64,000 bases of DNA, from contig WRBB01000016.1 in assembly GCA_009779895.1 (NCBI GenBank), forward strand, positions 2,363 to 66,362, given 5' to 3'. The position numbers and the translations under genes are program-made. This DNA is from Lachnospiraceae bacterium (lineage in GTDB: Bacteria; Bacillota; Clostridia; Lachnospirales; Lachnospiraceae). Shown piece by piece: positions 6,001 to 45,195 of the stretch (position 1 is its first letter; each line of letters opens with the position of its first letter). A model generated the notes under the pieces. It saw nothing but the letters and a program-made list of their open reading frames with translations. It searched no databases and was not told the DNA's origin.

Positions 6001-6450
6001 CATCTTCCGGTGTATTCACTATAGGTAAATTTGACTCTTCACCCTCATATATTGACTGATCTGCCAGATTTATAACCGGAATACTAACGTCCTCTCTGCT
6101 CACATCTGCTTGATATAGCAATATTGCCTTAGCATCACAATCCTCCAACATGTATGCAAGTCGCTCTTTCGGGCATGTAACATCAATGGGAACATAGGCT
6201 GCTCCAGACTTGATTATTCCATAAATACCAATCACAAGCTCAAAACTACGCTCTGTTTTCATGGCTACATAATCACCCGGTTTTATCCCCATATCTCTTA
6301 ATCGCTTCGCCAAAACATTGGCTTTTGCATTTAATGCACCATAAGTCATGCTCGTATCTTCAAACGTCATCGCAATATCGTTCGTTGCCTTTGCGACTTG
6401 TTCTTCAAATAAATGAACCACCGTCTTTTCTTTTGGATAAACCATTTTGG
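1..6450 (-). repeat. In-register direct repeats of a 3,120-bp NRPS module unit (two full periods plus the start of a third)
   Basis: Equivalent codons lie exactly 3,120 nt apart: HHIISDG at 1121-1141 vs 4241-4261, and PCP Ser codons at 1679-1681 vs 4799-4801. The A-domain N-terminal string ctctgttttcatggc(c/t)acataatcacccgg recurs near 11, 3131 and 6251. By eye, A-T portions are roughly 80-90 percent identical at DNA level and C2 vs C3 somewhat less (estimate, not computed). The starter C1 (6450-7939) is divergent. Confidence 0.85.
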
Positions 6451-7939
6451 TTTTATTGAAGTCTATTTGTATTTTTTTACGTTCCGCTTTGGTAAGAACT
6501 TCAATCTCATTTATTTTTTGATCCAAAATTCCACTTGCTTCATGAATGATTTCATCTAAAAGCAAATAATAACGTTCCACGAATTGTTGAATAAATGTTT
6601 CATCAAAAACACCTTTGCGGTAATTGATTCCCCCCTCAATTTTGTCACCGGCTTTGATTAATTCAAAATCCATTGCTGCTCTGCTATAACCATTGTCAAT
6701 TTCTTGAAAATCAATTTCCAGACCATCAAAAACAAGCTTGCTTTCCGCATGTTCCTTATAATTAAAAAGCAATTGATAAATAGGGCTTTCTTCTTTTTTC
6801 AGATAAGCATCTTTCTTTTCATAACTTTCTAAAAAATTCTCATAGGAGGCTTTTATAAAATCTGAAAATGTCAAATTGTCATCTATCACCGACCTGATTG
6901 GGAGAATATCAGCAAAACAGCCAACCATTGGTTGTAACTCTGCCAAATCCCGCCCTAGGGTAATTACACCGGCGGTAATATCCTTTTGCATGGAATATTT
7001 ATAAATCAACAGTTTTAAAACCGCAAAGTAAATGCTAAAAACCGTTACCTGCTCTCGCTGCGCCACATCTTGAATTTTCTTGGCCACCTGAGCACTAATG
7101 TGAATTTCTTCTCGCAAAGCTAATGCATCAAAATGTGTTAAATCTTGCATCTCTTTTAAAATATCCAATGAAAAGTCAGCACCCTCTAATTGGTCTACCC
7201 AATATTTTTTAGCTAACTTCTCTTCATAGATATCTTTTTTGGCATTACGTTCCCACCAAGCAAAATCTTTAAATTGAATCGATAATTCCTGTTGCCTATT
7301 TTCAATATTTCCAACCTTAGCAAAACAATATTGAAGTGCTTCTCCCAAGGCAATGTTAATGCTCATACCATCGCCTACAAGATGATGCATCACAAGCATA
7401 ACAGTCCAATCATTTGGTGCTGTACAAATAAGGGATGCTCTCACAAGGGTATCTTTCTCTAAGTCAAAAGGTTTTCCTGCCACTTCATCCATCATTTCTG
7501 CAACAACAGCTTTTCTATCACGGTTCAGATGGGAATAGTCATGCATTTCCGGTTCAAACACCATGTCCTCATCCATTTCTGCATAAATCAGACCATTCTC
7601 TTCCTTGAAATGCATATGTAGAATTTCATGCCGATGAAACATCTCCTGAAGCCCCTCTACAAACCGTTGCATTTGAGCCGCTTCAAGGATTCGATGGATA
7701 CCTCTGATACGAGCAATCGAAATCATATTATACATGGTTGCATCCAAACTGATATGATTGGCAACCCATATTTTCTCTTGTGCAAAAGTCAATGGATAAC
7801 GATTATTATCAACTTGAGCAGGCTTGATTTCTACCGCCCCGCCTTGGGTTTGTCTCAGTCGTTTTTTTCTTAGTAATTTTTCCAACAACGCCTGCTTTTC
7901 CGGCGATAACTGACTGAGTTTATCGTTTATTGTGCTCAT
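1..7939 (-). CDS. Non-ribosomal peptide synthetase; N-terminus complete, C-terminus runs off the left window edge; visible domain order C-A-T-C-A-T-C-A(partial)
   Basis: Missing from the ORF track only because its stop lies beyond position 1. My translation from ATG (complement of 7937-7939, GAGG about 9 nt upstream) gives MSTINDKLSQLSPEKQALLEKLLRKKRLRQ... The N-terminal ~700 codons (7939 to ~5820) were read codon by codon without a stop. Downstream motifs all share one frame, and the track shows no stop-terminated in-frame minus-strand fragment in this span, so the frame looks open to position 1 (>2,646 codons). Motifs: C1 MHHLVGDG 7367-7390; A1 FDASIVEIF ~5827-5851 and YTSGTTGEPKG 5954-5986; T1 FFELGGNSLKA (Ser codon 4799-4801); C2 HHIISDG 4241-4261; A2 YTSGTTGEPKG ~2832-2866; T2 GGNSLKA (Ser codon 1679-1681); C3 HHIISDG 1121-1141; start of A3 (LFEEQVAKAPDNIAMTFEGTSMTYGVLN) ~1-200. 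Confidence 0.92.
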   Translation of the reverse strand, partial: MSTINDKLSQLSPEKQALLEKLLRKKRLRQTQGGAVEIKPAQVDNNRYPLTFAQEKIWVANHISLDATMYNMISIARIRGIHRILEAAQMQRFVEGLQEMFHRHEILHMHFKEENGLIYAEMDEDMVFEPEMHDYSHLNRDRKAVVAEMMDEVAGKPFDLEKDTLVRASLICTAPNDWTVMLVMHHLVGDGMSINIALGEALQYCFAKVGNIENRQQELSIQFKDFAWWERNAKKDIYEEKLAKKYWVDQLEGADFSLDILKEMQDLTHFDALALREEIHISAQVAKKIQDVAQREQVTVFSIYFAVLKLLIYKYSMQKDITAGVITLGRDLAELQPMVGCFADILPIRSVIDDNLTFSDFIKASYENFLESYEKKDAYLKKEESPIYQLLFNYKEHAESKLVFDGLEIDFQEIDNGYSRAAMDFELIKAGDKIEGGINYRKGVFDETFIQQFVERYYLLLDEIIHEASGILDQKINEIEVLTKAERKKIQIDFNKTKMVYPKEKTVVHLFEEQVAKATNDIAMTFEDTSMTYGALNAKANVLAKRLRDMGIKPGDYVAMKTERSFELVIGIYGIIKSGAAYVPIDVTCPKERLAYMLEDCDAKAILLYQADVSREDVSIPVINLADQSIYEGEESNLPIVNTPEDDFYLIYTSGTTGEPKGVMCRHKGTVNLIAYLQKNYPIDKSSIVLQKTAYTFDASIVEIFRWSLTGARGHLLSPGDEKDPFRMCEEIGVHHVTEMQVVPSMLKVMMIAVKNDEKKYGHMLKTLRYVFTGGEAITVDVVNDFYKVFGQYSKAIALINTYGPTETSVEAAHYHLKANEEKVLIGKPIGNYQAYILNGTTLCGIDMIGELCIAGVGVTKGYLNSEALTNEKFIVNPFGDGKLYRTGDGARWLVDGNMEYLGRVDEQVKIRGFRIELGEIESALRSIPTVLDAVVIVVTNESGDKTLCAYVQSENELDFEQIKLELRNHLPEYMVPAYFMRVEEIPVTSSGKLNKKALPKIEISSTQAYVAPITETEKTMVHIFQEMFDIEQVGINDSFFELGGNSLKATLLVNRIEQETGLRLGIKDIFQGVTVAGICLALEDVSGVYEPIPQAEEKEYYPMSSAQKRLFVLDQLEDASIVYNMPIALKMEGKLDVDKAEAMFHQLIERHEAFRTSFELIDGEAVQIIHKNVVSDVVYKEQGEVIDKKQVMEEFIRPFDLSQAPLIRAEIVKVEEEGHVLLLDMHHIISDGISTVVLMSEFLALYAGAELPALRVQYKDYTQWMLSRDLSAQKAYWLGQFEDEIPVLALPIDYARPTLQSFKGATLVRKLDKRLRDCVLRLSAKTNTTEYMVLLSLFMMMLGKYGNQEDVVVGTPISGRTHRDTENMLGIFVNTLVMRGKPNKDKTLSQFLEEVKAFSLGAYENQEYPFEELVEVLDLPRDMSRNPLFDVMFSLDENNEQESKTIHGVKFDSIEGEHMDAISKFDLSLSLREMDGGYEAAFEYCMDLFREETISRMAERFIYLLEQIDAYSEAKIGEIEIVLEAEKNQILTDFNKTAMVYPKDKTVIELFEDQVQKAPDHVAMMFENQSMTYGVLNAKANVIARRLRDMGIKPGDYVAMKTERSFELVIGIYGIIKSGAAYVPIDVACPKERLQYMLKDCDAKAILLYQADVSMEDFNIPIMHLADESIYGGDESNLPIINTPEDDFYLIYTSGTTGEPKGVMCQHKGTVNLITYLQENYFIDASSTVLQKTAYTFDASIVEIFRWSLTGAKGYLLSPEDEKDPFRMCEEIGAHQITEMQVVPSMLKTMMIAVKSNKAKYAHMLKTLRYVFTGGEAITVDGVNDFYEMFSDYNSEVDLINTYGPTETSIEVTHHHLRANEKVVIGTPVGNDQAYIVNGIAICGIGMIGELCIAGVGVTKGYLNSEALTNEKFIENPFGDGKLYRTGDAARWQADGNIEYLGRIDEQVKIRGFRIELGEIESALRNIEAVLDAVAIVQENETGDKTLCAYVQSEISLDFEQIKAQLRNHLPEYMVPAYFMQIDEIPVTSSGKQNKRALPKIAITAIKAYVAPSNETEKAIAAIFEEMFGIEQVGIKESFFELGGNSLKATLLVNHIEQVTGVRLGIKDIFQGLTVEGISLALEDVEGTYEPIPQAEVKTYYPMSSSQKRLYLIEQISDVGVSYNLPIPLKVQGKLKVEDLESVFQKLVQRHEAFRTSFHLVDGEPVQQIHSHVKMNIGYKEQDKGLCMEQMIRDFICPFDLSQAPLMRVDIVKKEEDSHMLLIDMHHIISDGMSISLFIEELLALAAGACLPELRVQYKDYSEWMRSRDLSSQKDYWIDAFSDEIPVLELPIDYARPAIQSFAGATIVIETGKELGSKIKELARKTGTTEYMVFLASAMTLLGAYANQEDVVIGSPISGRTHRDTENMFGMFVGTLAMRGYPEKEKSFVRLLEEIKTTSLKAYENQEYPIEELIENVAVRRDMSRNPLFDVMLILQNNEDPDFRDAIEGLSIEFVEAKNAEAKFDLTFIMEEQDESFEIALEYCTMLFQQETVELMLAHYIELLSDLVEKPEMKLKEIDMLTEIERGLIFGAFNDTAMEYPSHQTVVQLFEEQVAKAPDNIAMTFEGTSMTYGVLNCKANVIAKRLRDMGVVPGDYVAMKTERSL

Positions 7940-8003
7940 CTTTTTCTACCTCTTTCATTCTGATTTTTCTAAAACAAATGATGATAAGATTTATTCTGTT
8001 TCC

Positions 8004-11000
8004 CTATGAAGTCAGATTAGAATCTAGCATCTCTGCCATTTCCTCATCTGACATATCCTCCAATTGCGCTAACAATACATCCAATTCCTCCTCAGAGGTA
8101 TCTTTTATTAAATCTTCCATTGTATTTAATTCCAATAAGGTATCTAATTGATCTGCAATTTTTTCAACCTTTTCCTGTAATGGTTGATTATTTAAAAGAT
8201 CAATGACGTTAAGAGAAGCACCTAATTTTAATTCAATTTTATTTCTTAACTCCGTCGCAACCATAGAATCAAGCCCTAATTCCGTCAGCGAGTTTTCCAT
8301 TGTAATTTCTTCTTGCTTCATATGTAAAGCTCTGGCAACAATCTGAATCACTTGCTCTTCTAACATCTGCATTCTATCTTCTTTAGAAAGACTGCTATAA
8401 GCTGACTGAAATTCTTTTAATATTTCTTCATCAGACCTCAGCTCATCATCTCCATCTAAGCTATTTAACATCACTTCTTCCAAATAAGGAATTTTACTTT
8501 TTGCATTCGATTCTTTTAACGTGAGCCAGTCTGCTTCTAAAACCGCTGAATAAGGAATATTTTGATGAATGAGCCGCTCCAATGTTTGCATTCCCTTATC
8601 CGGCGTTATGGGTTCTAATCCTTTTTGCCGATAGACATTGATTAAATTTAACTCTTTAATCATCCCTACCGCCCAAGGTCCCCAAGCAATACTCAAAGCC
8701 GCAAGCCCTTTCTGTCTTCTATATGTAGCCAAACCATCTAAAAATGCATTGGCTGCCGTATAGTTCGCTTGTCCGGCTGTTGTAATTAAAGCAGCAATCG
8801 AAGAAAACATCACAAAAAAGTCCAACCGTTGCTTTTCAAAGCATTTATGCAAAACCCAATGTGAGAAAACCTTTGTTTGATACACTTCATCAAAGACCTC
8901 TTTTGACATTTGAGCAATTAACATATCTTTGACAACTCCGACTGCACTAATAACGCCTCTGACACTTTTTAGACTTTCGGCATGTTCAACAAAATACGCC
9001 TTAACAGCATGTTCATCTAAGAAATCAATAGCATCTACTATCACCGTCGCCCCTTTTTCTTCGAGACCTTGCACAAATTTGATTCGCGCTTGGATTTTAT
9101 GCGCAAGATCCTCATTTTGCCACGCTTCCCTTTCGGGCAAATTTTCCCGTCCCAGCAAAATCAACTTCTTTGCGCCTTTTTCCACCAACCAATTGGCAAC
9201 CAATTGACCCAATGCACCAAAAGCTCCCGTAACCATATAACTGGCATGTTCATCCATCTGAACAGGCAACGGTTTTGTTAAATTACTTGTATTTCGAACC
9301 CGCGCAACATAACGCAGACCATTACGAAAAGCAATTTGATCCTCATCATCACCTTTTAAAACCTGCGTAGCCAATTGATTCAAACTATCCGCTATGGCAT
9401 CCGGATCCAAATCAACAATGCCACCCCATGAGGCAATATATTCCTGATTGGCAAGCAGTCTTGCTGTTCCCCAAATCGCATTTTGCATCACTTCCCGTTC
9501 TTTTTGTGAATCAATGGCTTGCGCTCCTTTTGTTACAATCCAAAGTTTCGGTGCTTTTTCAACGGCCACAGCCGCCTTTACTGCGCTCAAAACCGTATAA
9601 ACACCGGCATCCCCCGATTGTAAAACATTTTGAGTTGTAATTTCATGGTTCTTTGGCAAATCAATATTCCAAAAATGCATAATACCTTTTATTGGCATTG
9701 TTTCTGTTACAGTCTGATACAATGTAACAAAATCTTCATCGTTGTTGAAACCAATCATCGCCTTTTTGGCTTCCATTTCAATGGATAATGCTTCACCTAA
9801 TTCAACACAAAAATAAGTCTCACCCTGCTGGGTTAAGATTTTTTCATATTGTGCACTAACACCACTTTTATCTCTAAGAATCAACCAACTACCCGGTTGT
9901 GATTCTTCTTTGATCTCTTCAACATTCTCCTTTTCAAGCCATTCTAAATCGTACAACCAACTGTCCATTATTTTCAATGGCACTTTTTGAGAAACACCCT
10001 CCAACACCTGTACACGCAAACGTTTAATTTCCGCAATCAAATGACCATTGTCATCATACAAATAAATATCACAATCTGTATAAATGTCAGTCTTTTTTGT
10101 TTGACAACAATAGGACCACATTTTTTCTTTCAAGTCCGCATAAAGTAAAAATTTATCCACACTAACAGGTAGCCGCATCTCAATTTCGGTATCATCGTTA
10201 TCATCCATACCAAATTCCAAGGCAACAATCCCTTGGAAACAAACATCCAAAATACCCGGATATATTTCATATTTTTCCGGCATCTCCACCTGCGGCATCT
10301 TTACTTTAGAGATTGCTTCCGTTTCGCCAACCCAGATTTTATCAATAGCCGCAAATGTATTGGTATATTGAAATCCAGAACCATGGAATTTTTTATAGAT
10401 CTTTTCTCCGGTGGATTCCCGCATATTATTTAATGTTTTTTCTTTAATCCCTCTTAAATCAATGCTTTTTACGGCAGCAAAATTCTGTATTTGTTTCAAT
10501 GCCCCTGTGGAGACCAATTCATAATGATCTACATTAGAAACATTATAGAGCGTAAAGGTAGCCCTTTCTTCATCTAACGTCATTTGCAGTTTTGTTGGTT
10601 TATTCGGTTGAATAAAAACCGCCTTTTTAAATGCAATATCTTCCAGAATATAAAATCCTTCGCCATAATATTCATTTGCCAATTGCAAAGCCATTTCCAT
10701 GTATCCGGCAGCCGGAAACAGTGGATTGCCACCAATACAGTGATCGTCTAAAAATGGAATCAGCTCCTTTTTAAGCTCAACCTCCCAAGTCGGACGTGCT
10801 GTTGCCAATCTTTTTCCTAATAAAATACGATCATATACACCCAACCGCCTAATTTTACTTGACGAAGATTCTGACCAATACACCTCTCTTTGCCATGCAT
10901 AATGGGGCAACTTCACAAAGTTGCCGATTTCCGGATAAATCCTTGTCCACTCTTTAAAAACACCCGTCGCATATAAACCGGCTAAAGCAAAATAAAACGT

Positions 11001-13538
11001 AGCCGACTCCGTTTGTTTACGATTCAGCGAACTGATAAAAGTCCCATTCACATTTTTTTCCGCACACATTTCTTTTAAGTAATAAGATAAGGTCGGATGG
11101 GGACCCACTTCTAAAAATTTTGTATAACCCGCATCTAAAATAGCCATTGCCGCATCTGCAAAATAAACCGCATGACGAACATTGTTCCACAAATAACTCG
11201 CGTCCATTTGCTCGGTAACACATTTTCCTATCGTCGTTGAATACAGTGTTGTTGCAGGCATATGAAATGTAACATCTGCAATTCCCGCCATAAATTCATC
11301 TTTTATTTCTTCCATGTAATGACTATGGAAAGGTACCGTTACATCCAAAAATTTACTAAAAACACCTTGCTCTGTTGCCGCTTCTCCCAATTTTACCAGC
11401 TCTTCCTCTTCACCGGCAAGGGTAACTCCCGTTGCACTATTAATGGCAACAATATTAATACCTTCATAATCAGCAATCAATTCCTCCACTGCTTCTTTTG
11501 ACATGCTAACGGCCATCATTTTCCCTTTGCCGGTCAACCTTTGTTGCAGACTACTTCTGTAATATATCACTCTTACCGCATCTTCAAAGCACAAAACACC
11601 CGCACAATAAAACGCAGCCACTTCACCTGCACTATGGCCGACAATGACGTCCGCCTGAATCCCTTTTGACTCCCATAACTGAATTAACCCGAACTGAATC
11701 GCAAAGTTCGCCGGTTGCGCCAGTTTGGTCTGACTCATTTCAGATGTTTCCTCTTCTGCAGACATGGCTTCTAGTAATGACCATCCGGCATATTTCAAAA
11801 ATTCTTTGTCGCATTTTTGAATCGCTTCCATGAAAACAGGCTCTGTTTTCATCAGTTCTTGCCCCATTCCCCACCATTGCGGTCCCATACCGGTGAAAAC
11901 AAAAACCAATTCCTGGTCCTCTTCTTTATTTTGACGTCCTTGTGCAACACCTAACGTTTGAATATCTTGAATATAATCATTTAAATTTTCTTTCAGCTCC
12001 TCTATATTTTTTGCTACAACCCCCAAACGAAATGGATGTTGATCGCGTCTAAATGCCATGCTATAACCTAAATCATATATATTTTCTATGCTTTTTTGCT
12101 CCAAAAAATCATAATATCTTTTAGCCATTGCCTTTAATCCCGTTTCTGATCTTGCAGAAATCGGGAATATACGCAATGATTCATCCGTCGTAGAGGATAG
12201 CAACGGAATTTCAGGTGCTTCCGCTAAAATCGCATGGGCATTTGTTCCACCAAAACCAAAGCTATTAACTGCTGCAACAGCCATACCTTTATGCTTTGGA
12301 TAGTCCATCAACTCTAATGGCACTTTTAAATTTAAAGCTTCTAAATCAATCTTGGGATTTATTGTTTTCAAATGAAGATGCGGCGGTATTTTCTTTTCTT
12401 TCAAAATCAAGGATGTTTTAATGACACCTGCTACACCCGCCACACTTTCCGTATGTCCAATATTCGTCTTAACAGAAGCAATGACACAGGGCTCTTTTTT
12501 ATTTCTACCCTTGCCATAAGATTCACCAAGTGCATTTGCTTCAATTGGATCTCCCACCGGGGTTCCCGTTCCATGCATCTCTATATACTGAACATCCGTT
12601 AATTTAATTCCCGCCTGTTTTACAGCTTTTTCAATTGCTACTTTTTGCGATTCTCCATTCGGAACCGTAATCCCATTTGTTTGTCCGTCTTGATTCACCG
12701 CACTTCCTAAAATAACCGAATAGATTTGATCTTTATCTGCAATTGCATCTTTTAAAGGTTTCAAAACAACAACAGCAGCACCCTCGCCCCTTACATATCC
12801 ATTTGCCGACTCATCCAATGTCTTGCATTTACCATCCGGTGACAAGAAACCACCACGAGATTCCGCGATTGTATATTGAGGCGCAAAATTCAACAAAATA
12901 CCTCCGGCAATTGCCATACTGCATTCTTTATTTCTAATGTTTTGACATGCCGTATGAATCGCAACCAACGATCCGGAACAAGCGGTATCAATCGCAAGAC
13001 TCGGCCCTACAAAGTCATACACATAAGACAATCTATTGGCAACCAAGGTCATCATACTACCTGTTGCTGAATGCAAGTCAATCTGATCTAAATGATCCAA
13101 ATCAAACTGAACATGTTGATAATCCAGTGTAAACGCACCAATAAATACCCCTGTATCTGACCCTACATATTTCTTTGTGATCATTCCGGCATCTTCCATC
13201 GCTTCCCAACTAACTTCCATTAAAATTCTTTGCTGCGGATCAATAAAGGTTGCTTCTCTTGGGGTAATACCAAAAAAACCTGGATCAAATTGATCCATGC
13301 CGTCTATAAATCCACCTTTTTGACTAACGGTTTTCCCGCTGAATGCGCGATCTGCGTGATAAAAAGTATGTCTGTCCCATCTGTTTTTTGGAACGTCTAC
13401 AATCGCATCCTTACCATTTTTTAACAGGTCCCAAAACTGATGCACATCATTAGAGTTTCCCGGAAAGCGACAACCAATCCCAACAATCGCAATCGAATCT
13501 TCTTTATACTTTTTACCATTCAATACAACTTTTTTCAT
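8004..13538 (-). CDS. Type I polyketide synthase, single module KS-AT-DH-KR-ACP (no ER, MT or TE recognised)
   Basis: 1,844-aa ORF. KS: IAIVGIGCRFPG, DTACSGS (Cys codon 12978-12980), EMHGTGT, NIGHTES. AT: GHSAGE (Ser codon 11631-11633) and VPFHSH (HAFH-like). DH: HCIGGNPLFP = HxxxGxxxxP (His codon 10740-10742). KR: VTGAFGALGQLV Rossmann (~9190-9236) and YTAANAFLD. ACP: LGLDSM (Ser codon 8265-8267). An acidic ~45-aa tail follows the ACP. The ATG overlaps the accA stop (ATGA, 13535-13538), with GGAGG about 9 nt upstream. Confidence 0.93.
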   Translation of the reverse strand: MKKVVLNGKKYKEDSIAIVGIGCRFPGNSNDVHQFWDLLKNGKDAIVDVPKNRWDRHTFYHADRAFSGKTVSQKGGFIDGMDQFDPGFFGITPREATFIDPQQRILMEVSWEAMEDAGMITKKYVGSDTGVFIGAFTLDYQHVQFDLDHLDQIDLHSATGSMMTLVANRLSYVYDFVGPSLAIDTACSGSLVAIHTACQNIRNKECSMAIAGGILLNFAPQYTIAESRGGFLSPDGKCKTLDESANGYVRGEGAAVVVLKPLKDAIADKDQIYSVILGSAVNQDGQTNGITVPNGESQKVAIEKAVKQAGIKLTDVQYIEMHGTGTPVGDPIEANALGESYGKGRNKKEPCVIASVKTNIGHTESVAGVAGVIKTSLILKEKKIPPHLHLKTINPKIDLEALNLKVPLELMDYPKHKGMAVAAVNSFGFGGTNAHAILAEAPEIPLLSSTTDESLRIFPISARSETGLKAMAKRYYDFLEQKSIENIYDLGYSMAFRRDQHPFRLGVVAKNIEELKENLNDYIQDIQTLGVAQGRQNKEEDQELVFVFTGMGPQWWGMGQELMKTEPVFMEAIQKCDKEFLKYAGWSLLEAMSAEEETSEMSQTKLAQPANFAIQFGLIQLWESKGIQADVIVGHSAGEVAAFYCAGVLCFEDAVRVIYYRSSLQQRLTGKGKMMAVSMSKEAVEELIADYEGINIVAINSATGVTLAGEEEELVKLGEAATEQGVFSKFLDVTVPFHSHYMEEIKDEFMAGIADVTFHMPATTLYSTTIGKCVTEQMDASYLWNNVRHAVYFADAAMAILDAGYTKFLEVGPHPTLSYYLKEMCAEKNVNGTFISSLNRKQTESATFYFALAGLYATGVFKEWTRIYPEIGNFVKLPHYAWQREVYWSESSSSKIRRLGVYDRILLGKRLATARPTWEVELKKELIPFLDDHCIGGNPLFPAAGYMEMALQLANEYYGEGFYILEDIAFKKAVFIQPNKPTKLQMTLDEERATFTLYNVSNVDHYELVSTGALKQIQNFAAVKSIDLRGIKEKTLNNMRESTGEKIYKKFHGSGFQYTNTFAAIDKIWVGETEAISKVKMPQVEMPEKYEIYPGILDVCFQGIVALEFGMDDNDDTEIEMRLPVSVDKFLLYADLKEKMWSYCCQTKKTDIYTDCDIYLYDDNGHLIAEIKRLRVQVLEGVSQKVPLKIMDSWLYDLEWLEKENVEEIKEESQPGSWLILRDKSGVSAQYEKILTQQGETYFCVELGEALSIEMEAKKAMIGFNNDEDFVTLYQTVTETMPIKGIMHFWNIDLPKNHEITTQNVLQSGDAGVYTVLSAVKAAVAVEKAPKLWIVTKGAQAIDSQKEREVMQNAIWGTARLLANQEYIASWGGIVDLDPDAIADSLNQLATQVLKGDDEDQIAFRNGLRYVARVRNTSNLTKPLPVQMDEHASYMVTGAFGALGQLVANWLVEKGAKKLILLGRENLPEREAWQNEDLAHKIQARIKFVQGLEEKGATVIVDAIDFLDEHAVKAYFVEHAESLKSVRGVISAVGVVKDMLIAQMSKEVFDEVYQTKVFSHWVLHKCFEKQRLDFFVMFSSIAALITTAGQANYTAANAFLDGLATYRRQKGLAALSIAWGPWAVGMIKELNLINVYRQKGLEPITPDKGMQTLERLIHQNIPYSAVLEADWLTLKESNAKSKIPYLEEVMLNSLDGDDELRSDEEILKEFQSAYSSLSKEDRMQMLEEQVIQIVARALHMKQEEITMENSLTELGLDSMVATELRNKIELKLGASLNVIDLLNNQPLQEKVEKIADQLDTLLELNTMEDLIKDTSEEELDVLLAQLEDMSDEEMAEMLDSNLTS

Positions 13539-14482
13539 TGCTCATAAACCTCCGGAATTGCCATCCGCCTAAATTTTTCATACCGCTGCTGCAACAAACT
13601 ATCTTTTTTTTCTTTTATCAATTTCGCAAGCTCTTCATACAATCTTTCTTTTAATTGTGCCATAACAAAATCCACCTGTGTATGGATGCCACCAACCGGT
13701 TCTTCAATTAAGATATCCACCACACCCAATTGATACAAATCTTGTGCCGTCAATTTCATTAGCTTTGCCGCTTCTTTCGCACGGCTAGCATCTTTCCATA
13801 AAATACTTGCAAACCCTTCCGGCGACAGCACCGAATATATACTATGCTCAAGCATCATGATTCTATCGGCTATACCAATTGCCAATGCGCCACCGCTTCC
13901 GCCCTCTCCAACAACCACCGCAATAATCGGAACCGTTAATTCCATAAACGTCTTTAAGCAATCTGCAATCGCTTCTGCTTGTCCGCGCTCTTCCGCACCA
14001 ATTCCGGGATAAGCTCCCGGCGTATCAATAAGTGTAATAATCGGTCTGCCAAATTTCTCCGCTTGCTTGGCCAAACGCAATGCCTTTCGATAACCCTCCG
14101 GATGTGGCATACCAAAGTTACGTTTCATATTCTCTTCCAATGTTTTACCTTTGACTTGCCCAATAATTGTTACGGGTATTCCTTTTAACAAACCAACACC
14201 ACCGATCATGGACTGGTCATCTCCATAGTACCTATCACCATGCATCTCCATAAAACCATCAAACAACATATCAATATAGCATTTTGCATTTGGGCGGAGA
14301 GGATGGCGCGCCAAATAGACCTTATCTTCCGGTTCTAACTTTTCAAAGGCCTCTTGTTCTGTATTTGCAATCAACTGCATCAATTCCTTTCTTAGGGATT
14401 CATTTTGAATTTCTGATTTATCCAGAGCCAATAATTGTTGTTTTAGCTGCTCAATTAATATCTCCATGCTCTTAAGGCTCAT
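13535..14482 (-). CDS. accA: Acetyl-CoA carboxylase carboxyltransferase alpha subunit
   Basis: 315 aa. ARHPLRPN, GRPIITLIDTPGAYPG and GEGGSGGALA are typical AccA signatures. 4-nt overlap with accD upstream and with the PKS downstream. Confidence 0.93.
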   Translation of the reverse strand: MSLKSMEILIEQLKQQLLALDKSEIQNESLRKELMQLIANTEQEAFEKLEPEDKVYLARHPLRPNAKCYIDMLFDGFMEMHGDRYYGDDQSMIGGVGLLKGIPVTIIGQVKGKTLEENMKRNFGMPHPEGYRKALRLAKQAEKFGRPIITLIDTPGAYPGIGAEERGQAEAIADCLKTFMELTVPIIAVVVGEGGSGGALAIGIADRIMMLEHSIYSVLSPEGFASILWKDASRAKEAAKLMKLTAQDLYQLGVVDILIEEPVGGIHTQVDFVMAQLKERLYEELAKLIKEKKDSLLQQRYEKFRRMAIPEVYEQ

Positions 14483-15360
14483 CGTTTCACCTCAATCTGA
14501 TGTAATTTTGACAATTTTGTTAACACCTCTTTTAAGTCCTCACGCTGCACAACCTGATCCACAAAACCTTTCTCCAACAAAAATTCAGAACGCTGAAATT
14601 CTTTTGGCAAATCTTGATTTATCGTCTGCTTAATAACACGAGGCCCCGCAAAACCAATCAAAGCACTAGGCTCTGCAATAATAATATCACCTAAACTAGC
14701 AAAACTAGCACTAACACCTCCTGTGGTAGGATGTGTCAGCACTGAAATATACAACAATCCTGCTTGGCTATGACGTCCAATTGCCGCACTTGTTTTTGCC
14801 ATTTGCATCAAGGATAAAATTCCTTCTTGCATTCTCGCACCACCTGAAGTGGAAAAAATCAATAACGGTAATTTCCTATGCGTCGCCATTTCAACCAATG
14901 CCGTGATTTTTTCACCCACAACAACACCCATACTTCCCATCAGAAAATAACTATCCATCACAGCAATTGCATATTCATAACCATTCACTTGACCAATGCC
15001 CGTTACAACCGCTTCATTCATTTTATTTCTTTGTCTGTTTTGCACCAGTTTCTCGGAATAACCGGGTATCTCCAATGGATTTTGACTTACTTCAGAAGCA
15101 AACATTTCTTCAAAGGTTCCGGCATCCACAATTTGCTCCAAACGTTCTGTTGCACGCAGCCTTACATGATTATCACAGTGATAACACACAAATAGATTCT
15201 GTTGCAAATCTTCCTTAAGCATACTTTCATGACAATTTGTACATTTTTCATACAATCCGTCCGGAATATTGGCAACGATACGCAATCGCCTTGTTTCTTG
15301 CGTATCAAAAAAACGATTTAATTTTTCTCTTTGTTGCTTAAAAGGATTTCTATTTTTCAC
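14479..15360 (-). CDS. accD: Acetyl-CoA carboxylase carboxyltransferase beta subunit
   Basis: 293 aa. N-terminal zinc ribbon CTNC...CYHC, then the carboxyltransferase core (SGGARMQEG). Overlaps the accC end by 11 nt. Confidence 0.93.
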   Translation of the reverse strand: MKNRNPFKQQREKLNRFFDTQETRRLRIVANIPDGLYEKCTNCHESMLKEDLQQNLFVCYHCDNHVRLRATERLEQIVDAGTFEEMFASEVSQNPLEIPGYSEKLVQNRQRNKMNEAVVTGIGQVNGYEYAIAVMDSYFLMGSMGVVVGEKITALVEMATHRKLPLLIFSTSGGARMQEGILSLMQMAKTSAAIGRHSQAGLLYISVLTHPTTGGVSASFASLGDIIIAEPSALIGFAGPRVIKQTINQDLPKEFQRSEFLLEKGFVDQVVQREDLKEVLTKLSKLHQIEVKR

Positions 15361-16711
15361 TCTTTTCCAACTCCCTTAACAAACGTTCCATGAACCCAAC
15401 ATCAAATATTCCTTTTACATACTCCGGGTTATTTAAAATATAATAATGGAAATCAATATTCGTTGTAATACCCACAATGATAAATTCTTCCAGTGCTTGG
15501 CGCATTTTATAGATACATTCCATTCGATTATTTCCATGAACAATCAATTTACCAACCATTGAGTCATAAAAAGGTGTCACTTTTGCGCCCGGATAAATGC
15601 ATGTATCTAGCCTCACACCAAAACCACCCGGAAATACCAATGTTTCAATTGTCCCGGCGGAGGGTTGAAAACCATGGAACGAATTTTCCGCATTGATGCG
15701 ACATTCTATCGCATAACCCCTCATCTGAATATCTTCTTGTCTAACAGACAATGGAAACCCCGATGCAATACGTATTTGCTCCTTAATCAAATCCACCCCT
15801 GTAATCATTTCCGTGATTGGATGCTCAACTTGAATTCTTGTATTCATTTCAATAAAATAATACTTCTGATCTTGATCCAAAATAAACTCAATCGTTCCTG
15901 CATTTGTGTAATTGATTGCAGCAGCAGCTTTCAGTGCATCCACTATCATACTTTGACGCACCTCTGCCCGCAATGTTGCACATGGTGCTTCCTCAATCAC
16001 TTTTTGATGATTGCGTTGCACAGAACAATCACGTTCGTATAAATGAAGATAATTATTATGATGATCTCCTATAATCTGAATTTCTATATGTTTTGGATTT
16101 TCAATATATTTTTCAATATAAACCGTATCATCCCCAAAACTCGCTTTTGCTTCCGCAGTTGCAAGTTTATAAGCACTTTCAAATTCATTCGCATCATATG
16201 CGACACGCATACCTTTTCCACCGCCACCACTCGCCGCTTTAATCAAGATTGGATACCCTATCTTCATTGCCCATGCAAGACCGTCCGATACGGAAGAAAT
16301 AATGGAATCACTACCCGGTACAACCGGTATTTGATGTTTCATCATCACAGCCCGTGCAGAGGATTTATTTCCCATCAAATCAATCATATCCGAACTTGGT
16401 CCAATAAAAGTGAGTTGACATTGATTCACCAATCGAGCAAACTTGCCGTTTTCTGAAAGAAAACCATATCCCGGATGAACCGCATCACAACCCGTATTAC
16501 AAGCAGCACTCAAAATATTTTGCATATTTAAATAACTATCAACGGCTCTTGGACCACCTACACATATCGCTTCATCTGCCAACTGAACATGCAAAGCGTC
16601 AGGCTCGGCTGTTGAATAAATCGCAACAGTCTCAATGCCCAACTCTTTACATGCCCGAATGATTCTAACCGCAATCTCTCCACGATTTGCAATTAATATT
16701 TTTTTCAACAT
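15350..16711 (-). CDS. accC: Biotin carboxylase subunit of acetyl-CoA carboxylase
   Basis: 453 aa. MLKKILIANRGEIAVRIIRA start, ATP-grasp GGGGKGMR, EMNTRIQVEHP. Confidence 0.95.
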   Translation of the reverse strand: MLKKILIANRGEIAVRIIRACKELGIETVAIYSTAEPDALHVQLADEAICVGGPRAVDSYLNMQNILSAACNTGCDAVHPGYGFLSENGKFARLVNQCQLTFIGPSSDMIDLMGNKSSARAVMMKHQIPVVPGSDSIISSVSDGLAWAMKIGYPILIKAASGGGGKGMRVAYDANEFESAYKLATAEAKASFGDDTVYIEKYIENPKHIEIQIIGDHHNNYLHLYERDCSVQRNHQKVIEEAPCATLRAEVRQSMIVDALKAAAAINYTNAGTIEFILDQDQKYYFIEMNTRIQVEHPITEMITGVDLIKEQIRIASGFPLSVRQEDIQMRGYAIECRINAENSFHGFQPSAGTIETLVFPGGFGVRLDTCIYPGAKVTPFYDSMVGKLIVHGNNRMECIYKMRQALEEFIIVGITTNIDFHYYILNNPEYVKGIFDVGFMERLLRELEKSEK

Positions 16712-16713
16712 AC

Positions 16714-17157
16714 TTAATCACCTATTTCGATCAAAGTTTGATTGTAAGATAAAATATCACCATTTTTAACATGAATCGCTTTTATTTCACCCGCAACAGG
16801 AGCTTTTATTTCATTTAACATTTTCATAGCTTCAATAATACAAAGCGTATCTCCCACCCGAACTTGGCTTCCTACTTTGACAAACGGTGGTTCCTCCGGC
16901 CCGCTCGCTTCATAATAAATCCCAACCAACGGTGCATTCACTGATGTAGTATCAGGTGCTTCTGAGACATTTTCAACCTTAACTTCTTCTCTCGACAAAG
17001 AAGAGACCGCCACCGTATGTTCCTTATTCAAAGGAGGTAATACAGAAACGCACTCTTTTTCTAAAACAAGCTCACCCTCTTCGTCTTTTAACTGTAATTT
17101 ACAAAGTGATGAATCCTCTAACACTTTAATTAACTTTTTCACTTTTTCTAAATCCAT
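16714..17157 (-). CDS. accB: Biotin carboxyl carrier protein
   Basis: 147 aa. C-terminal biotinyl domain with EAMKM biotinylation motif (CIIEAMKMLNEI). Stop lies 2 nt before the accC start. Confidence 0.92.
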   Translation of the reverse strand: MDLEKVKKLIKVLEDSSLCKLQLKDEEGELVLEKECVSVLPPLNKEHTVAVSSLSREEVKVENVSEAPDTTSVNAPLVGIYYEASGPEEPPFVKVGSQVRVGDTLCIIEAMKMLNEIKAPVAGEIKAIHVKNGDILSYNQTLIEIGD

Positions 17158-17343
17158 CTTTTACCCCCTACCCCAAAACAGAATTATCCTATTCGGTATT
17201 GTTTAAATATGTTTTTACTTTAATAGAAAATCAAAGCAATTTCTTAATAAAGTAAAAAAAAATTGCCTGTATAGTTCCATGGCAAATCTCTGAGAAAAAG
17301 TACGCCAAACCATTTTGTAATAACTTAAAATACACCCGTGCAA

Positions 17344-17373
17344 AGTATAACAAATTTCCATCTTATCTTGCAA
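17344..17373 (-). promoter_or_regulatory. Candidate sigma-A promoter for the accB-...-PKS-NRPS transcription unit
   Basis: Minus strand reads TTGCAA (17368-17373), an 18-nt spacer, then TATACT (17344-17349). It lies about 185 nt upstream of the accB ATG in a 394-nt gap after alr. Confidence 0.45.
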
Positions 17374-17551
17374 TATATATGTCGTGAACGGCCAATTAAA
17401 CGACGCGAACGACCCAAATGAAGAAATTCTTAATAAATTTTTAACGAAGACAAGGTTGTTGTAACACAAATGAAATAAAAAACAAGACACATTTTATATC
17501 TGCGCCCTGTTTGTGAATTGTCCGATTACTCATAAAGATTTCAAGGACATA

Positions 17552-18676
17552 TCAACATTTATATTTCCTGGGAATCCGATTACCCAAACAACATAAAAAT
17601 TCATAATTAAAACGATTGCTTAACTTACTCAATTCATCAACATGAATTTCTTCCTTACCCATTTTTCCTACCAAAACCACTAAATCCATACTCTGCACAT
17701 CGGGCAAATGACTCACATCAACCATAAACTGATCCATGCAAATACGTCCCAATATTCTACAACGTTTCCCGCCAATCAATACCTCTCCTATATTAGACAA
17801 AGAACGGGGATACCCATCCCCATAACCTACCGGTATGGTTGCAATTTGCATTTTCTTAGGCGTAACAAAAGTGCTGCCGTAACTAATGGGCGTACCTTTT
17901 GGTACTTCTTTTACAAAGGTAACGTGGCTTGTCAAACGCAAAGCAGGCTTTAATCTAACCTTACTGCGCTCCACTTCATCAGAAGAATAAAAGCCGTACA
18001 CAGACAAACCTGCTCTGACCAAATTGTTGCTAAATTGAGGAAACGCTAAAACCCCCGCACTATTGTTGCAATGATAAAAAGGAACCTCTTTGCCCAATGA
18101 TGCCAAAAACTTCTTATATATCTCATATTGTGTTTTGGTGAAATCCACAGTCGGTTCATCTGCCCTAGCAAAATGGGTGAAAATACCATCTACGTTTAGA
18201 TTCGGCAACGCAAAAATCTGCTTGACCGCTTGCAAGCTTTCTTCTGTCGGTAAAAACCCCAAGCGCCCCATCCCTGTATCCAACTTAATATGTATGCGCA
18301 GCATTTCCCCTGCTTCAACCGCAAGTTGACTCATCTCTTTTGCCATATCATAAGTATAAACTGTCGGGATAATATCATAAGCAATCATCTCTTTGTATTG
18401 CTCCAAAAAGACGCAACCAAGGACAATGATATTCGTTTGAATCCCACCCTTGCGCAATTCTACAGCCTCGCCTAGTGTTGCCACGCCAAATCCCCACAAA
18501 AAATCTAAAGCTTGCTTTGTCAAATGTTGTGCTACTTTCAATAAACCATGGCCGTATCCATTGGCCTTAACCACCACCATCAGTTGACTTTGACCAATAT
18601 TATTATGTAATTGTTTGACATTCTCAGTGATGGCATCTAAGTCTATCGTAGCACAGACACGTCTATGTATTTTCAT
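17552..18676 (-). CDS. alr: Alanine racemase
   Basis: 374 aa. PLP-lysine motif VVVKANGYGHG. Overlaps the nnr end by 14 nt, so it belongs to the nnr operon. Confidence 0.92.
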   Translation of the reverse strand: MKIHRRVCATIDLDAITENVKQLHNNIGQSQLMVVVKANGYGHGLLKVAQHLTKQALDFLWGFGVATLGEAVELRKGGIQTNIIVLGCVFLEQYKEMIAYDIIPTVYTYDMAKEMSQLAVEAGEMLRIHIKLDTGMGRLGFLPTEESLQAVKQIFALPNLNVDGIFTHFARADEPTVDFTKTQYEIYKKFLASLGKEVPFYHCNNSAGVLAFPQFSNNLVRAGLSVYGFYSSDEVERSKVRLKPALRLTSHVTFVKEVPKGTPISYGSTFVTPKKMQIATIPVGYGDGYPRSLSNIGEVLIGGKRCRILGRICMDQFMVDVSHLPDVQSMDLVVLVGKMGKEEIHVDELSKLSNRFNYEFLCCLGNRIPRKYKC

Positions 18677-43083: not shown

Positions 43084-43084
43084 C

Positions 43085-44278: not shown

Positions 44279-44289
44279 TTCATCACCTC

Positions 44290-45195
44290 TCAGGCATCTT
44301 TCTTGCGTAAAATACCCTTTTCTACCAAAAACACAGGACGATATGACAACTTCGCTTTTCGTAAGCCCTCGGAACCCAAATCCTCTTCCCGATTAATATA
44401 CCGGTAATCCATACATTCATTTAACACAAACTGCTGATTGATCATAGGATAAGCACCATCTACCGCAGTAAAAGCCTTTTCAATATGGACACAAAACATC
44501 TCTGCATTGACAGGTTCTCCCATTGTAATGGCTACAATTTCACCACCCACACGGAGCAAACCACCTTTTAAACCCAACTCATTGTGCAACCGCAAAGAAT
44601 TTAAGGTAACACACATCTCTGCATTTTTTTCTTCATTTTCATCACAACCATTCAAAGAACGCCACTTTAACGCCATCTGAAAACATTCTTCCAGGTTCCC
44701 ATCTGTAATGGTTTCATAAACCCAATCCCGGTTGATATTTTTGAATTTATTAATATGATTTCGTTTGCTATGTAATTTTTTGCCCGAAAGAGTGGCCAAT
44801 TTTTCTCTTTCATAAACATAATCCGCTTCATCCCGATCATAAGTAATCTCATATTGATTTGGATACCAACGGTCAATCATCGCAAATTCTTCTTCCAATA
44901 CATTAAAAAAATGAATCTCTCTTTTTTCTGCCTCAAAATATTGAATCATTTTGTCAAAGGCTTTCTTCACATTTTCTTCTTTTCCAATGGGAATGGAAAA
45001 ACGGGAACGCTCTTCTTTATCCGAACAAAAAACCAAAGCATCTTCTATCATTCCATACCTTACTTTATAATCTCTCGACCACAACAAAGCATTGGCAAAG
45101 GTTCGCTCACAAGCGTTCCTCTCCGGATTTGCAAAGTATGACTTAATAATCTGCCGGTCTTCTACCTCTGGTTTCTTAAATGCTGAATCAATCAT
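44290..45195 (-). CDS. DUF2156-like protein (related to the C-terminal domain of phosphatidylglycerol lysyltransferase)
   Basis: Preferred start is MIDSAFKKPEV (45195), which clears the prfA stop at 45218. Family assignment is from memory of the LHSKRNHINKF-type motif, so it is tentative. Confidence 0.5.
   Translation of the reverse strand: MIDSAFKKPEVEDRQIIKSYFANPERNACERTFANALLWSRDYKVRYGMIEDALVFCSDKEERSRFSIPIGKEENVKKAFDKMIQYFEAEKREIHFFNVLEEEFAMIDRWYPNQYEITYDRDEADYVYEREKLATLSGKKLHSKRNHINKFKNINRDWVYETITDGNLEECFQMALKWRSLNGCDENEEKNAEMCVTLNSLRLHNELGLKGGLLRVGGEIVAITMGEPVNAEMFCVHIEKAFTAVDGAYPMINQQFVLNECMDYRYINREEDLGSEGLRKAKLSYRPVFLVEKGILRKKDA

What the first reader, a model, noticed from the sequence alone, without database searches (positions are those of the whole stretch)
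13535..17157. A complete acetyl-CoA carboxylase is translationally coupled to the PKS
Seen: the accB stop is 2 nt from the accC start. accC/accD overlap by 11 nt. accD/accA and accA/PKS each overlap as ATGA. No fab genes flank the acc genes here, and there is no fabZ between accB and accC. From memory, Clostridia usually embed the acc genes in the fab cluster. The PKS AT domain carries malonyl-type signatures (GHSAGE, xxFH). Inference: either this is a second, dedicated malonyl-CoA supply for the PKS, or the biosynthetic genes have been grafted onto the housekeeping acc operon. The second case would tie secondary metabolism to fatty-acid precursor expression.
Basis: partly seen in the sequence, partly recalled or inferred. 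Interest (0 to 1): 0.6.

Follow-up and report, generated by a model that had tools for sequence, protein, structure and literature searches.

The report
Acetyl-CoA carboxylase cassette fused to polyketide cluster
A termite-gut Lachnospiraceae bacterium carries a complete four-gene acetyl-CoA carboxylase set that came in together with a polyketide/peptide antibiotic-type gene cluster, most likely as the cluster's own malonyl-CoA supply; this is a known strategy in an unusually complete, tightly fused form.

Summary
accB, accC, accD and accA (window 17157-13535, minus strand) are complete. Each passes NCBI's equivalog cut-off. They are packed exactly as described, and accA overlaps a KS-AT-DH-KR-ACP polyketide synthase by ATGA. 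An NRPS follows. The junction appears in four independent termite-gut runs.

- The host is Lachnospiraceae (RF1 86-88% identical).
- Its four nearest alanine-racemase relatives have no acc after alr; three have alr-yebC.
- The acc proteins group with a clade of acc sets that sit beside PKS/NRPS genes in at least three different layouts in termite-gut contigs.
- That clade lies next to, or within, the acpP-accBCDA-fabH housekeeping sets of other termite-gut Bacillota, and away from two Lachnospiraceae references.

The ATGA fusion itself is specific to this lineage. In relatives an ABC-transporter pair lies between accA and the PKS, and the last codons of the window's accA match the non-coding PKS leader of those relatives.

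Whether a second, fab-linked acc set exists in this genome could not be tested, because only a 72-kb metagenome contig is available. No resistance-type substitutions were found. This is a new member of a known kind, of moderate interest.

The parts
17552..18676 (-). alr (alanine racemase), the last resident chromosomal gene before the inserted block
   Evidence: Pfam Ala_racemase_N/C. In relatives alr is followed by yebC or a hydrogenase and never by acc.
17470..17512 (-). terminator-like hairpin (12-bp stem) plus a U6AU3 run, about 40 nt after the alr stop codon
   Evidence: Fold: -13.7 kcal/mol, z = -3.65, 0 of 200 shuffles as stable. The simple pattern scan missed it.
17344..17373 (-). best promoter-like site in the 394-nt alr-accB spacer (TTGCAA, 18 nt, TG-TATACT); candidate operon promoter
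   Evidence: Consensus scan. Weak evidence only, because promoter-like hits in the region do not exceed the shuffled expectation.
16714..17157 (-). accB, biotin carboxyl carrier protein
   Evidence: TIGR00531 127.5 bits against a 115.2 cut-off. EAMKM motif present.
15350..16711 (-). accC, biotin carboxylase
   Evidence: TIGR00514 672 bits against a 626.5 cut-off. Three Pfam biotin-carboxylase domains.
14479..15360 (-). accD, carboxyltransferase beta, GTG start, 11-nt overlap with accC
   Evidence: TIGR00515 359.6 bits against a 317.45 cut-off. E = 2e-94 to S. aureus CT beta 2f9i_B. The start aligns with the ATG of L085.
13535..14482 (-). accA, carboxyltransferase alpha
   Evidence: TIGR00513 387.9 bits against a 319.3 cut-off. 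E = 2e-94 to 2f9i_A.
13535..13560 (-). accA/PKS fusion point. The last accA codons (..CCGGAGGTTTATGAGCAATGA) match the non-coding PKS leader and Shine-Dalgarno sequence of relatives.
   Evidence: Alignments A1 and A2 and junction sequences. No stable RNA structure.
8004..13538 (-). single-module type I PKS, KS-AT-DH-KR-ACP, with malonyl-type AT motifs
   Evidence: Pfam and motifs. 79-84% identical to the PKS of L082, L083 and L103.
2..7939 (-). NRPS with a starter condensation domain (runs off the window; at least 3896 aa in the source contig, cut at the contig end)
   Evidence: Pfam finds three C, three A and two T stretches. Gene call in the source contig. 61% identical over 1613 aa to the NRPS next to the acc set of L002.

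Best explanation
The four genes encode a complete heteromeric acetyl-CoA carboxylase with no sign of altered catalysis. It belongs to a distinct lineage of acc cassettes that travel with polyketide/non-ribosomal-peptide clusters in termite-gut Bacillota.

In this Lachnospiraceae chromosome the cassette, the PKS and the NRPS form one block that lies after alr, where relatives have other genes. The block probably has its own promoter in the alr-accB spacer and is probably read as one operon.

Its most likely role is a cluster-owned malonyl-CoA supply, switched on together with a malonyl-specific and possibly iterative KS-AT-DH-KR-ACP synthase. That synthase would hand an acyl chain to the starter condensation domain of the NRPS.

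The ATGA overlap of accA and the PKS is a recent local event. Most simply it is a deletion of about 2 kb, between short similar sequences (CCAGAAG at the accA end, CCAGGAGG in the leader), that removed an ABC-exporter pair and placed the PKS ribosome-binding site inside the end of accA.

Shown here: gene identities, junctions, synteny, linkage in relatives and phylogenetic placement. Inferred: co-transcription, supply function, iterative use of malonyl-CoA, and the existence of a separate housekeeping acc set.
For: - The ACC is complete and the junctions are as described.
- The junction is real in four runs, with equal depth on both sides.
- The host is Lachnospiraceae: RF1 is 86-88% identical to Mediterraneibacter and Schaedlerella.
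- The four nearest Alr relatives lack acc after alr. L168 also shares the ABC-F/rex/nnr/alr order.
- Relatives with AccA at 74-84% identity all lie beside secondary-metabolite genes. L082, L083, L085 and L103 have accDA, an ABC ATPase and an ABC permease; L082, L083 and L103 continue into a PKS 79-84% identical to the window's, while the L085 contig ends after the ABC ATPase. L002 has accBCDA facing a convergent NRPS-ABC-ABC-PPTase-carA array. L089 and L092 have accDA-birA-accBC-PPTase; L092 continues into discrete ACP/KS/KR/DH/KS genes, while the L089 contig ends in the PPTase.
- None of these relatives has fab genes after accA.
- The cluster-linked sets form a clade: 95% bootstrap on AccD+AccA, and 100% in the first AccA tree.
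- That clade is sister to a 100%-supported termite clade of acpP-accBCDA-fabH sets in the AccD+AccA tree (64%) and nested among those sets in the larger AccA tree.
- Both Lachnospiraceae references fall in another clade with 90% support.
- All five termite fab clusters examined carry their own acc set.
- No terminator, no notable promoter and no stable RNA structure lie at the accA/PKS junction. A terminator-like hairpin follows alr.
- The AT domain carries GHSAGE and VPFH.
- A PKS with the same domain order in C. acetobutylicum works iteratively on malonyl-CoA (PMC5686105).
- ACC subunits are already the commonest 'target-like' genes next to type I PKS clusters, and extender supply has been proposed as the reason (bioRxiv 10.1101/2020.06.01.128595).
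- Evidence that the junction arose by deletion comes from the alignments.
Against: - No whole genome is available, so a second fab-linked acc set in this organism is assumed and not shown.
- The far side of the block lies beyond the contig end, so the insertion is defined on one side only.
- GC content and tetranucleotide usage of the block match the rest of the window. Any transfer is therefore old, or came from a donor of similar composition.
- The trees are neighbour-joining only and include just two Lachnospiraceae references. The support for the sister relationship is modest (64%).
- L086 and L087, with AccA at 79-80% identity, have acc followed by a radical-SAM gene and no PKS within 5 kb.
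- No RNA data exist.
- The direction of the deletion-versus-insertion event at the junction is not proven.
Confidence: 0.62

Rival explanations
1. This is the cell's only acetyl-CoA carboxylase. A xenologous accBCDA set replaced the native one, or the lineage has lost FASII. It simply lies beside the cluster, so membrane-lipid precursor supply and secondary metabolism share one operon.
For: - No second set can be shown.
- No relative with AccA at 74% identity or more has fab genes nearby. The whole clade could therefore be the housekeeping set of a lineage whose fab genes lie elsewhere.
- L002 keeps bioY and birA upstream of accB, as the fab-linked L003 does.
- The proteins keep every universally conserved residue.
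- fakA lies in the window, so uptake of external fatty acids is possible.
Against: - The syntenic relatives lack acc at this site.
- The acc type is not that of the two Lachnospiraceae references.
- No acc-less fab cluster was found: five of five termite fab clusters carry their own acc.
- In L092 the cassette is embedded between LytTR/kinase regulators and PPTase/ACP/KS genes. That is an unlikely home for an essential gene set.
- Placing an essential enzyme in one transcript with a PKS-NRPS of more than 17 kb is unusual.
Confidence: 0.2
2. This is a self-resistance copy. The PKS-NRPS makes an ACC inhibitor in the manner of andrimid, moiramide or thailandamide, and the cluster carries an insensitive ACC.
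For: - Hybrid PKS-NRPS products are the classic carboxyltransferase inhibitors, and the andrimid cluster carries a duplicated accD, admT (PMC13151354).
- ACC beta is the most frequent putative resistance gene near type I PKS clusters.
- An ABC exporter pair belongs to the related clusters.
Against: - No position that is at least 90% conserved in 19-28 other AccA, AccD and AccC sequences is replaced in the cluster-linked clade.
- The AccD residue matching E. coli M203 is T, as in moiramide-sensitive S. aureus. That M203 is the andrimid-resistance site is from memory.
- Known resistance copies are single subunits; here all four are present.
- The same cassette lineage accompanies two different cluster types, a PKS-NRPS and a discrete KS/KR/DH system. 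That fits a common precursor need better than a common target.
Confidence: 0.1
3. This is an assembly chimera that joins a Lachnospiraceae chromosome to a cluster from another organism.
For: The taxonomic signals of RF1 and of the acc genes differ.
Against: - A single X2 contig of 24 kb spans alr, acc and the PKS with no differences.
- An X1 contig crosses the alr-accB spacer, and depth is equal on both sides (23.5-23.8 in X1, 11 in X2).
- The ENA assembly was made independently and agrees.
- GC content, GC skew and tetranucleotide usage are uniform across the junction.
Confidence: 0.02

Closest known systems
Acyl-CoA carboxylase genes inside polyketide clusters as extender-unit supply (for example jadJ of the jadomycin cluster, from memory; survey in bioRxiv 10.1101/2020.06.01.128595)
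   Same: Carboxylase genes lie beside, and in the same orientation as, a malonyl-using PKS. The presumed role is to raise malonyl-CoA when the cluster is expressed.
   Different: Here all four subunits of the heteromeric bacterial enzyme are present, with birA or bioY in sister cassettes. The host is an anaerobic gut Lachnospiraceae. The last acc gene is fused by an ATGA overlap to the PKS.
Housekeeping acpP-accBCDA-fabH-fabK-fabD-fabG-fabF-fabZ operons of Longicatena and termite-gut Bacillota (L004, L090, L162, L164, L166, L167, L170)
   Same: Same accB-C-D-A gene order with overlapping junctions, 60-69% protein identity, and the nearest phylogenetic neighbours.
   Different: The window has no acpP upstream and no fab genes downstream, its chromosomal site is different, and a PKS-NRPS occupies the place of the fab genes.
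Classic clostridial/Lachnospiraceae fab cluster (fabH-K-D-G-F-accB-fabZ-accC-D-A; L007 Anaerotaenia torta)
   Same: The host belongs to the same family by RF1, and the enzyme is the same.
   Different: The gene order differs: no fabZ between accB and accC, and no fab genes. AccA, AccC and AccD are only 61, 58 and 51% identical, and AccA falls in a separate clade (90% bootstrap).
Target-duplication self-resistance (AdmT = AccD in the andrimid cluster; PMC13151354)
   Same: A copy of a carboxyltransferase gene lies inside a hybrid PKS-NRPS cluster.
   Different: The full four-gene set is present rather than one subunit, and no substitution at conserved sites was detected.
C. acetobutylicum ca_c3355 iterative KS-AT-DH-KR-ACP synthase (PMC5686105)
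   Same: Identical domain order, a malonyl-type AT, and an anaerobic Bacillota host.
   Different: That gene is an orphan without acc or NRPS neighbours. Sequence similarity to the window's PKS was not measured.

Membership tests
Heteromeric bacterial acetyl-CoA carboxylase (AccA/B/C/D) | BCCP with a biotinyl-lysine motif (E-A-M-K-M) | tested here: met
   IIEAMKMLNE read. TIGR00531 is above its cut-off.
Heteromeric bacterial acetyl-CoA carboxylase (AccA/B/C/D) | Biotin carboxylase with N-terminal, ATP-grasp and C-terminal domains | tested here: met
   Pfam PF00289, PF02786 and PF02785. TIGR00514 672 bits against a 626.5 cut-off.
Heteromeric bacterial acetyl-CoA carboxylase (AccA/B/C/D) | Separate carboxyltransferase alpha and beta subunits, the beta with an N-terminal Cys4 zinc ribbon | tested here: met
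   TIGR00513 and TIGR00515 are above their cut-offs. CTNC...CYHC is present (alignment). The Pfam zinc-ribbon score, 23.1, is just under the 24.5 cut-off. Best PDB hits are S. aureus CT 2f9i chains A and B.
Heteromeric bacterial acetyl-CoA carboxylase (AccA/B/C/D) | Carboxylates acetyl-CoA to malonyl-CoA | not testable with these tools
   Needs an enzyme assay.
Cluster-embedded precursor-supply carboxylase | Linked to and co-oriented with a synthase that uses the product | tested here: met
   ATGA overlap with a PKS whose AT carries GHSAGE and VPFH.
Cluster-embedded precursor-supply carboxylase | Linkage to biosynthetic genes conserved in relatives | tested here: met
   L082, L083, L085, L103, L002, L089 and L092. 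Exception: L086 and L087.
Cluster-embedded precursor-supply carboxylase | A separate housekeeping copy exists in the same genome | not testable with these tools
   Only a 72-kb metagenome contig is available. The collection scans also miss 62-69% paralogues, because the L162-type sets were absent.
Cluster-embedded precursor-supply carboxylase | Co-expressed with the cluster | not testable with these tools
   No RNA run holds the stretch. There is only indirect support: no terminator at the junction.
Housekeeping FASII-linked acc operon | Adjacent to acpP and fab genes | tested here: not met
   No fab or acpP gene in 64 kb.
Housekeeping FASII-linked acc operon | Same locus in syntenic relatives that lack the cluster | tested here: not met
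   alr is followed by yebC or a hydrogenase in the four nearest relatives.
Self-resistance target copy (AdmT type) | Substitutions at inhibitor-contacting, otherwise conserved positions | tested here: not met
   No clade-specific replacement at positions at least 90% conserved elsewhere. Less conserved positions were not examined.
Self-resistance target copy (AdmT type) | The cluster product inhibits ACC | not testable with these tools
   The product is unknown.
Translationally coupled gene pair | Stop/start overlap with a Shine-Dalgarno sequence inside the upstream gene and no intervening terminator | tested here: met
   GGAGG lies 9 nt before the PKS ATG, with an ATGA overlap. No terminator or stable structure.
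Translationally coupled gene pair | Arrangement conserved in relatives | tested here: not met
   In relatives the accA stop and the PKS start are 1.8-2.0 kb apart, with two ABC genes between them.

The most novel reading that the evidence does not exclude
The cassette is a complete insensitive ACC, and the PKS-NRPS of this termite-gut Lachnospiraceae makes an ACC-targeting antibiotic. This would be an anaerobe counterpart of andrimid or thailandamide, with whole-enzyme self-resistance. The sister cassettes would then mark further such clusters.
Probability: 0.1. Interest if true: 0.7.

Novelty: new member of a known kind. Interest (0 to 1): 0.4.

Why it matters
Polyketides from strict anaerobes are few, and malonyl-CoA is usually the limiting precursor. 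Here accBCDA, sometimes with birA or bioY, accompanies different polyketide clusters across termite-gut Bacillota. That suggests a portable supply cassette. It gives a simple genomic marker for finding malonyl-hungry clusters in gut anaerobes. It also provides a ready-made part for expressing such clusters in other hosts.

If this were instead the cell's only ACC, lipid synthesis would be wired to a secondary-metabolite operon. If it were a resistant copy, it would point to a new ACC inhibitor. Both alternatives can be settled with a closed genome and simple assays.

Tried and rejected
- **Paralogue count by collection scans.** The genome and metagenome scans with AccA rely on six exact 8-mers. 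They missed fab-linked sets at 62-69% identity in the very same metagenome (L162, found later). Their silence about a second set in the L002 MAG therefore means nothing.
- **Co-abundance.** I laid runs X1 and X2 on the L090 acc-fab cluster at 80% likeness. Only short patches matched. fab-like contigs with depths near the window's (21.1/9.82 and 19.6/9.55, against 23.6/11) exist. Many contigs share that depth ratio, so this was not used as evidence.
- **Sample identification.** The listing of cluster members returned no accessions.
- **Composition.** GC content and tetranucleotide usage neither separate the block from the rest of the window nor link it to any fab contig.
- **Spacer comparison.** The alr-accB spacer shows no detectable similarity to L002, L168 or L169, so the left edge of the block is not mapped to the base.
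- **Rfam.** Nothing was found near the operon.
- **RNA runs.** None holds the stretch.
- **Rejected, Erysipelotrichales host.** This was my first guess from the AccA hits. RF1 and Alr place the host in Lachnospiraceae.
- **Rejected, L092 genes as housekeeping FASII.** Its KS, KR and DH genes are only 22-38% identical to Fab proteins, there is no FabH, FabD or FabK, and PPTases and regulators lie among them.


Full report
**What is there**

On the minus strand the window reads alr (17552-18676), then a 394-nt spacer. Next come accB (16714-17157), accC (15350-16711), accD (14479-15360, GTG start) and accA (13535-14482). A 1844-aa polyketide synthase follows (8004-13538), then an NRPS that runs off the window.
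There are 2 nt between accB and accC. accC and accD overlap by 11 nt. accD/accA and accA/PKS each overlap as ATGA.
- Each start is preceded by a GGAG-type ribosome-binding site inside the upstream gene.
- The GTG start of accD aligns with the ATG start of a relative, L085.
- All four proteins pass NCBI's equivalog cut-offs for the ACC subunits.
- BCCP has the EAMKM biotinylation motif, and AccD has the four zinc-ribbon cysteines.
- The PKS has the domain order KS-AT-DH-KR-ACP. It carries GHSAGE and VPFH in the AT domain, an active-site Cys in the KS, HxxxGxxxxP in the DH and GLDS in the ACP.
- The NRPS starts with a condensation domain. In the source contig it is at least 3896 aa long and is cut by the contig end.
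- Nothing else in the 64 kb is a fab, acpP, birA, bioY or PPTase gene. The rest is chromosomal housekeeping: polC, ispG, prfA, prmC, rho, recG, fakA, rsmD, coaD and rex.

**Is it real**

The window comes from a 72-kb contig of a termite-gut metagenome assembly.
- A single independent Logan contig of run X2 covers 7000-19000 without a difference.
- An X1 contig covers 7000-14973 and another covers 16089-19000.
- Small contigs of X3 and X4 cross position 13535.
- Depth is the same on both sides of every junction.
- GC content, GC skew and tetranucleotide usage are uniform.

An assembly chimera is therefore very unlikely.

**Transcription signals**

- A 12-bp hairpin followed by U6AU3 lies about 40 nt after the alr stop codon (17470-17512; -13.7 kcal/mol, z = -3.65).
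- The best promoter-like site in the spacer is at 17344-17373.
- At the accA/PKS junction there is no terminator-like site and no notable promoter, and the RNA is no more structured than shuffled sequence.
- Rfam finds nothing near the operon.
- No public RNA run holds the region.

A single transcript running from the spacer through acc into the PKS is therefore inferred and not shown.

**Who the host is**

Release factor 1 is 86-88% identical to that of Mediterraneibacter, Schaedlerella and related Lachnospiraceae. The named Alr hits are also Lachnospiraceae. My first guess was Erysipelotrichales, because the AccA hits point that way. That guess was wrong for the host but informative about the acc genes.

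**What relatives have at this site**

The best Alr relatives are only 59-61% identical.
- L168 keeps the window's neighbourhood of ABC-F (opposite strand), rex, nnr and alr, at 73, 69, 53 and 59% identity. After alr it continues with yebC.
- L169 and L172 also have alr-yebC-249 aa(-ftsK).
- L173 has alr followed by an Fe-hydrogenase.

None has acc after alr.

**Where the acc set is found elsewhere**

Scans with AccA, followed by BLAST and Pfam annotation of the loci, sort the relatives into two kinds.

*Fab-linked sets:*
- Longicatena caecimuris and related gut contigs have accBCDA-fabH-fabK-fabK2-fabD-fabG-fabF-fabZ (AccA about 54-62% identical).
- The termite-gut contigs L003/L090 and L091 have the same order (68%).
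- The Lachnospiraceae Anaerotaenia torta (L007) has the classic fabHKDGF-accB-fabZ-accCDA order (61%).

*Sets without fab genes, all from termite guts and all closer to the window:*
- L082, L083, L085 and L103 (82-84%) have accD-accA followed by an ABC ATPase. In L082, L083 and L103 an ABC permease and a PKS 79-84% identical to the window's follow. The L085 contig ends after the ATPase.
- L002 (81%) has bioY and birA, then accBCDA, facing a convergent array NRPS-ABC-ABC-PPTase-carA. Its NRPS is 61% identical to the window's over 1613 aa.
- L089 and L092 (74-77%) have accD-accA-birA-accB-accC-PPTase. In L092 this lies between LytTR/kinase regulators and discrete ACP, KS-like, KR, DH and KS genes. 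L088 (75%) has accD-accA-birA before its contig ends.
- L086 and L087 (79-80%) have accD-accA followed by a radical-SAM gene and no PKS in view.

**Are there acc-less fab clusters that would complement an 'orphan' acc?**

A search with the FabH of L090 and five context look-ups gave acpP-accBCDA-fabH... every time: L162/L163, L164, L166, L167 and L170. One of these, L162, is on a 213-kb contig of the same metagenome that holds six cluster-linked sets. These fab-linked AccA proteins are 60-69% identical to the window's. No fab cluster lacking acc was seen.

These sets were missed by the pattern-based scans. Those scans therefore cannot be used to argue that a genome has only one acc set.

**Phylogeny**

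All trees are neighbour-joining with 60-100 bootstraps.
- In the AccD+AccA tree the cluster-linked sets form a clade (95%). Its sister (64%) is a 100%-supported clade of termite fab-linked sets. Both sit inside a group with the Longicatena type (91%).
- In the larger AccA tree the cluster-linked sets are nested among the termite fab-linked sets, with weak internal support. The two Lachnospiraceae references (L007, L052) fall in a different clade with 90% support.
- The first AccA tree gave 100% support for the core cluster-linked clade.

A genome that is Lachnospiraceae by RF1 thus carries an acc set of another type. The set was most likely acquired together with the cluster.

The bioY-birA genes next to accB in both L002 and the fab-linked L003 suggest an origin: the front part of an acc-fab locus. 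Caveats are the simple tree method, the small number of Lachnospiraceae references, and uncertain NCBI labels on the termite MAGs ('Turicibacter', 'Defluviitaleaceae', 'Oscillospiraceae').

**Origin of the ATGA fusion**

In L082, L083 and L103 the PKS start is preceded by a non-coding leader, ..TTTCCAGGAGGTTTATTGATAATGAAAGAA. The window reads ..ATGGCAATTCCGGAGGTTTATGAGCAATGAAAAAA.
- The left part of the window sequence aligns with the accA ends of relatives (ATGGCAAT[A/G]CCAAGT.., and ..ACTCCAGAAGCTGTATAG in L002).
- The right part aligns with that leader.
- The last five codons and the stop of the window's accA are therefore the former PKS leader, and the PKS ribosome-binding site now lies within accA.
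- The simplest account is a deletion of about 2 kb between the similar short sequences CCAGAAG and CCAGGAGG, which removed the two ABC genes.
- The reverse event, an insertion of the ABC pair in the relatives, cannot be excluded.

Either way the acc-PKS linkage is conserved, while the direct translational coupling is specific to this lineage.

**Function**

The enzyme shows no sign of altered catalysis. No position that is at least 90% conserved across 19-28 other AccA, AccD and AccC sequences is changed in the cluster-linked clade. The best structural relatives by sequence are the S. aureus and E. coli carboxyltransferases.

This fits precursor supply better than target-based self-resistance. 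Self-resistance is known for single subunits, such as AdmT in the andrimid cluster (PMC13151354).

A survey of type I PKS clusters already found ACC beta to be the most frequent co-located 'target-like' gene and suggested extender supply as the reason (bioRxiv 10.1101/2020.06.01.128595).

The PKS has the same domain order as the C. acetobutylicum synthase ca_c3355, which was shown to act iteratively on malonyl-CoA (PMC5686105). If this PKS is also iterative, each product molecule costs several malonyl-CoA, which would make a private supply worthwhile. That step is inference.

**Verdict**

- The cluster-owned, dedicated-supply reading is favoured (about 0.6).
- The grafted-onto-housekeeping-operon reading is contradicted by synteny.
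- It remains open whether this is nevertheless the only ACC in the cell (about 0.2) or a resistant copy (about 0.1). A whole genome is needed to decide.

Carboxylase genes inside polyketide clusters are a known device. The points of interest here are:
- the complete four-gene cassette, in sister loci with birA or bioY;
- its recurrence beside different clusters in termite-gut anaerobes;
- the deletion that fused it to the PKS.

Noticed in passing
window 63635-63814 (+): Cobalamin riboswitch (RF00174, 57.4 bits, full length) at the far end of the window. Unrelated to the finding.
   Followed up: no
L092:7097-20523 (Ga0123355_10001883); also L089: A rearranged cassette, accD-accA-birA-accB-accC, lies between LytTR/GHKL regulators and two PPTases. 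Discrete ACP, KS-like (341 aa), KR, DH and KS (394 aa) genes follow. This is a discrete, type II-like highly reducing polyketide or fatty-acid-like cluster with its own ACC and biotin ligase.
   Followed up: partly
L086:750-4406, L087:318-2782: Close acc relatives (AccA 79-80%) in which accA is followed by a radical-SAM protein of about 500 aa (L086 and L087) and, in L086, by DprA-like and HicAB genes. No PKS or fab genes lie within 5 kb.
   Followed up: no
L162, L164, L166, L167, L170 (termite-gut contigs): All the termite-gut FASII clusters retrieved with the FabH query place acpP-accBCDA directly in front of fabH, in five different chromosomal contexts. This differs from the classic clostridial order with fabZ between accB and accC (L007).
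   Followed up: partly
window 20178-21704 (-): A cardiolipin synthase gene sits between rex and nnr in the window but is absent from that position in the syntenic relative L168.
   Followed up: no
window 42016-45261 (-): Two tandem class I/II aminotransferase genes are followed by a DUF2156 (LPG_synthase_C domain) protein, between ispG and prfA.
   Followed up: no
L002:11264-12346 (-): A lone carA-like gene (carbamoyl-phosphate synthase small chain, a glutamine amidotransferase) ends the NRPS-ABC-PPTase array that faces the acc set. No carB was seen beside it.
   Followed up: no
(method): The pattern-based locus scans missed accA homologues of 62-69% identity that are present in the same metagenome. 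Negative results from them should not be read as absence.
   Followed up: yes
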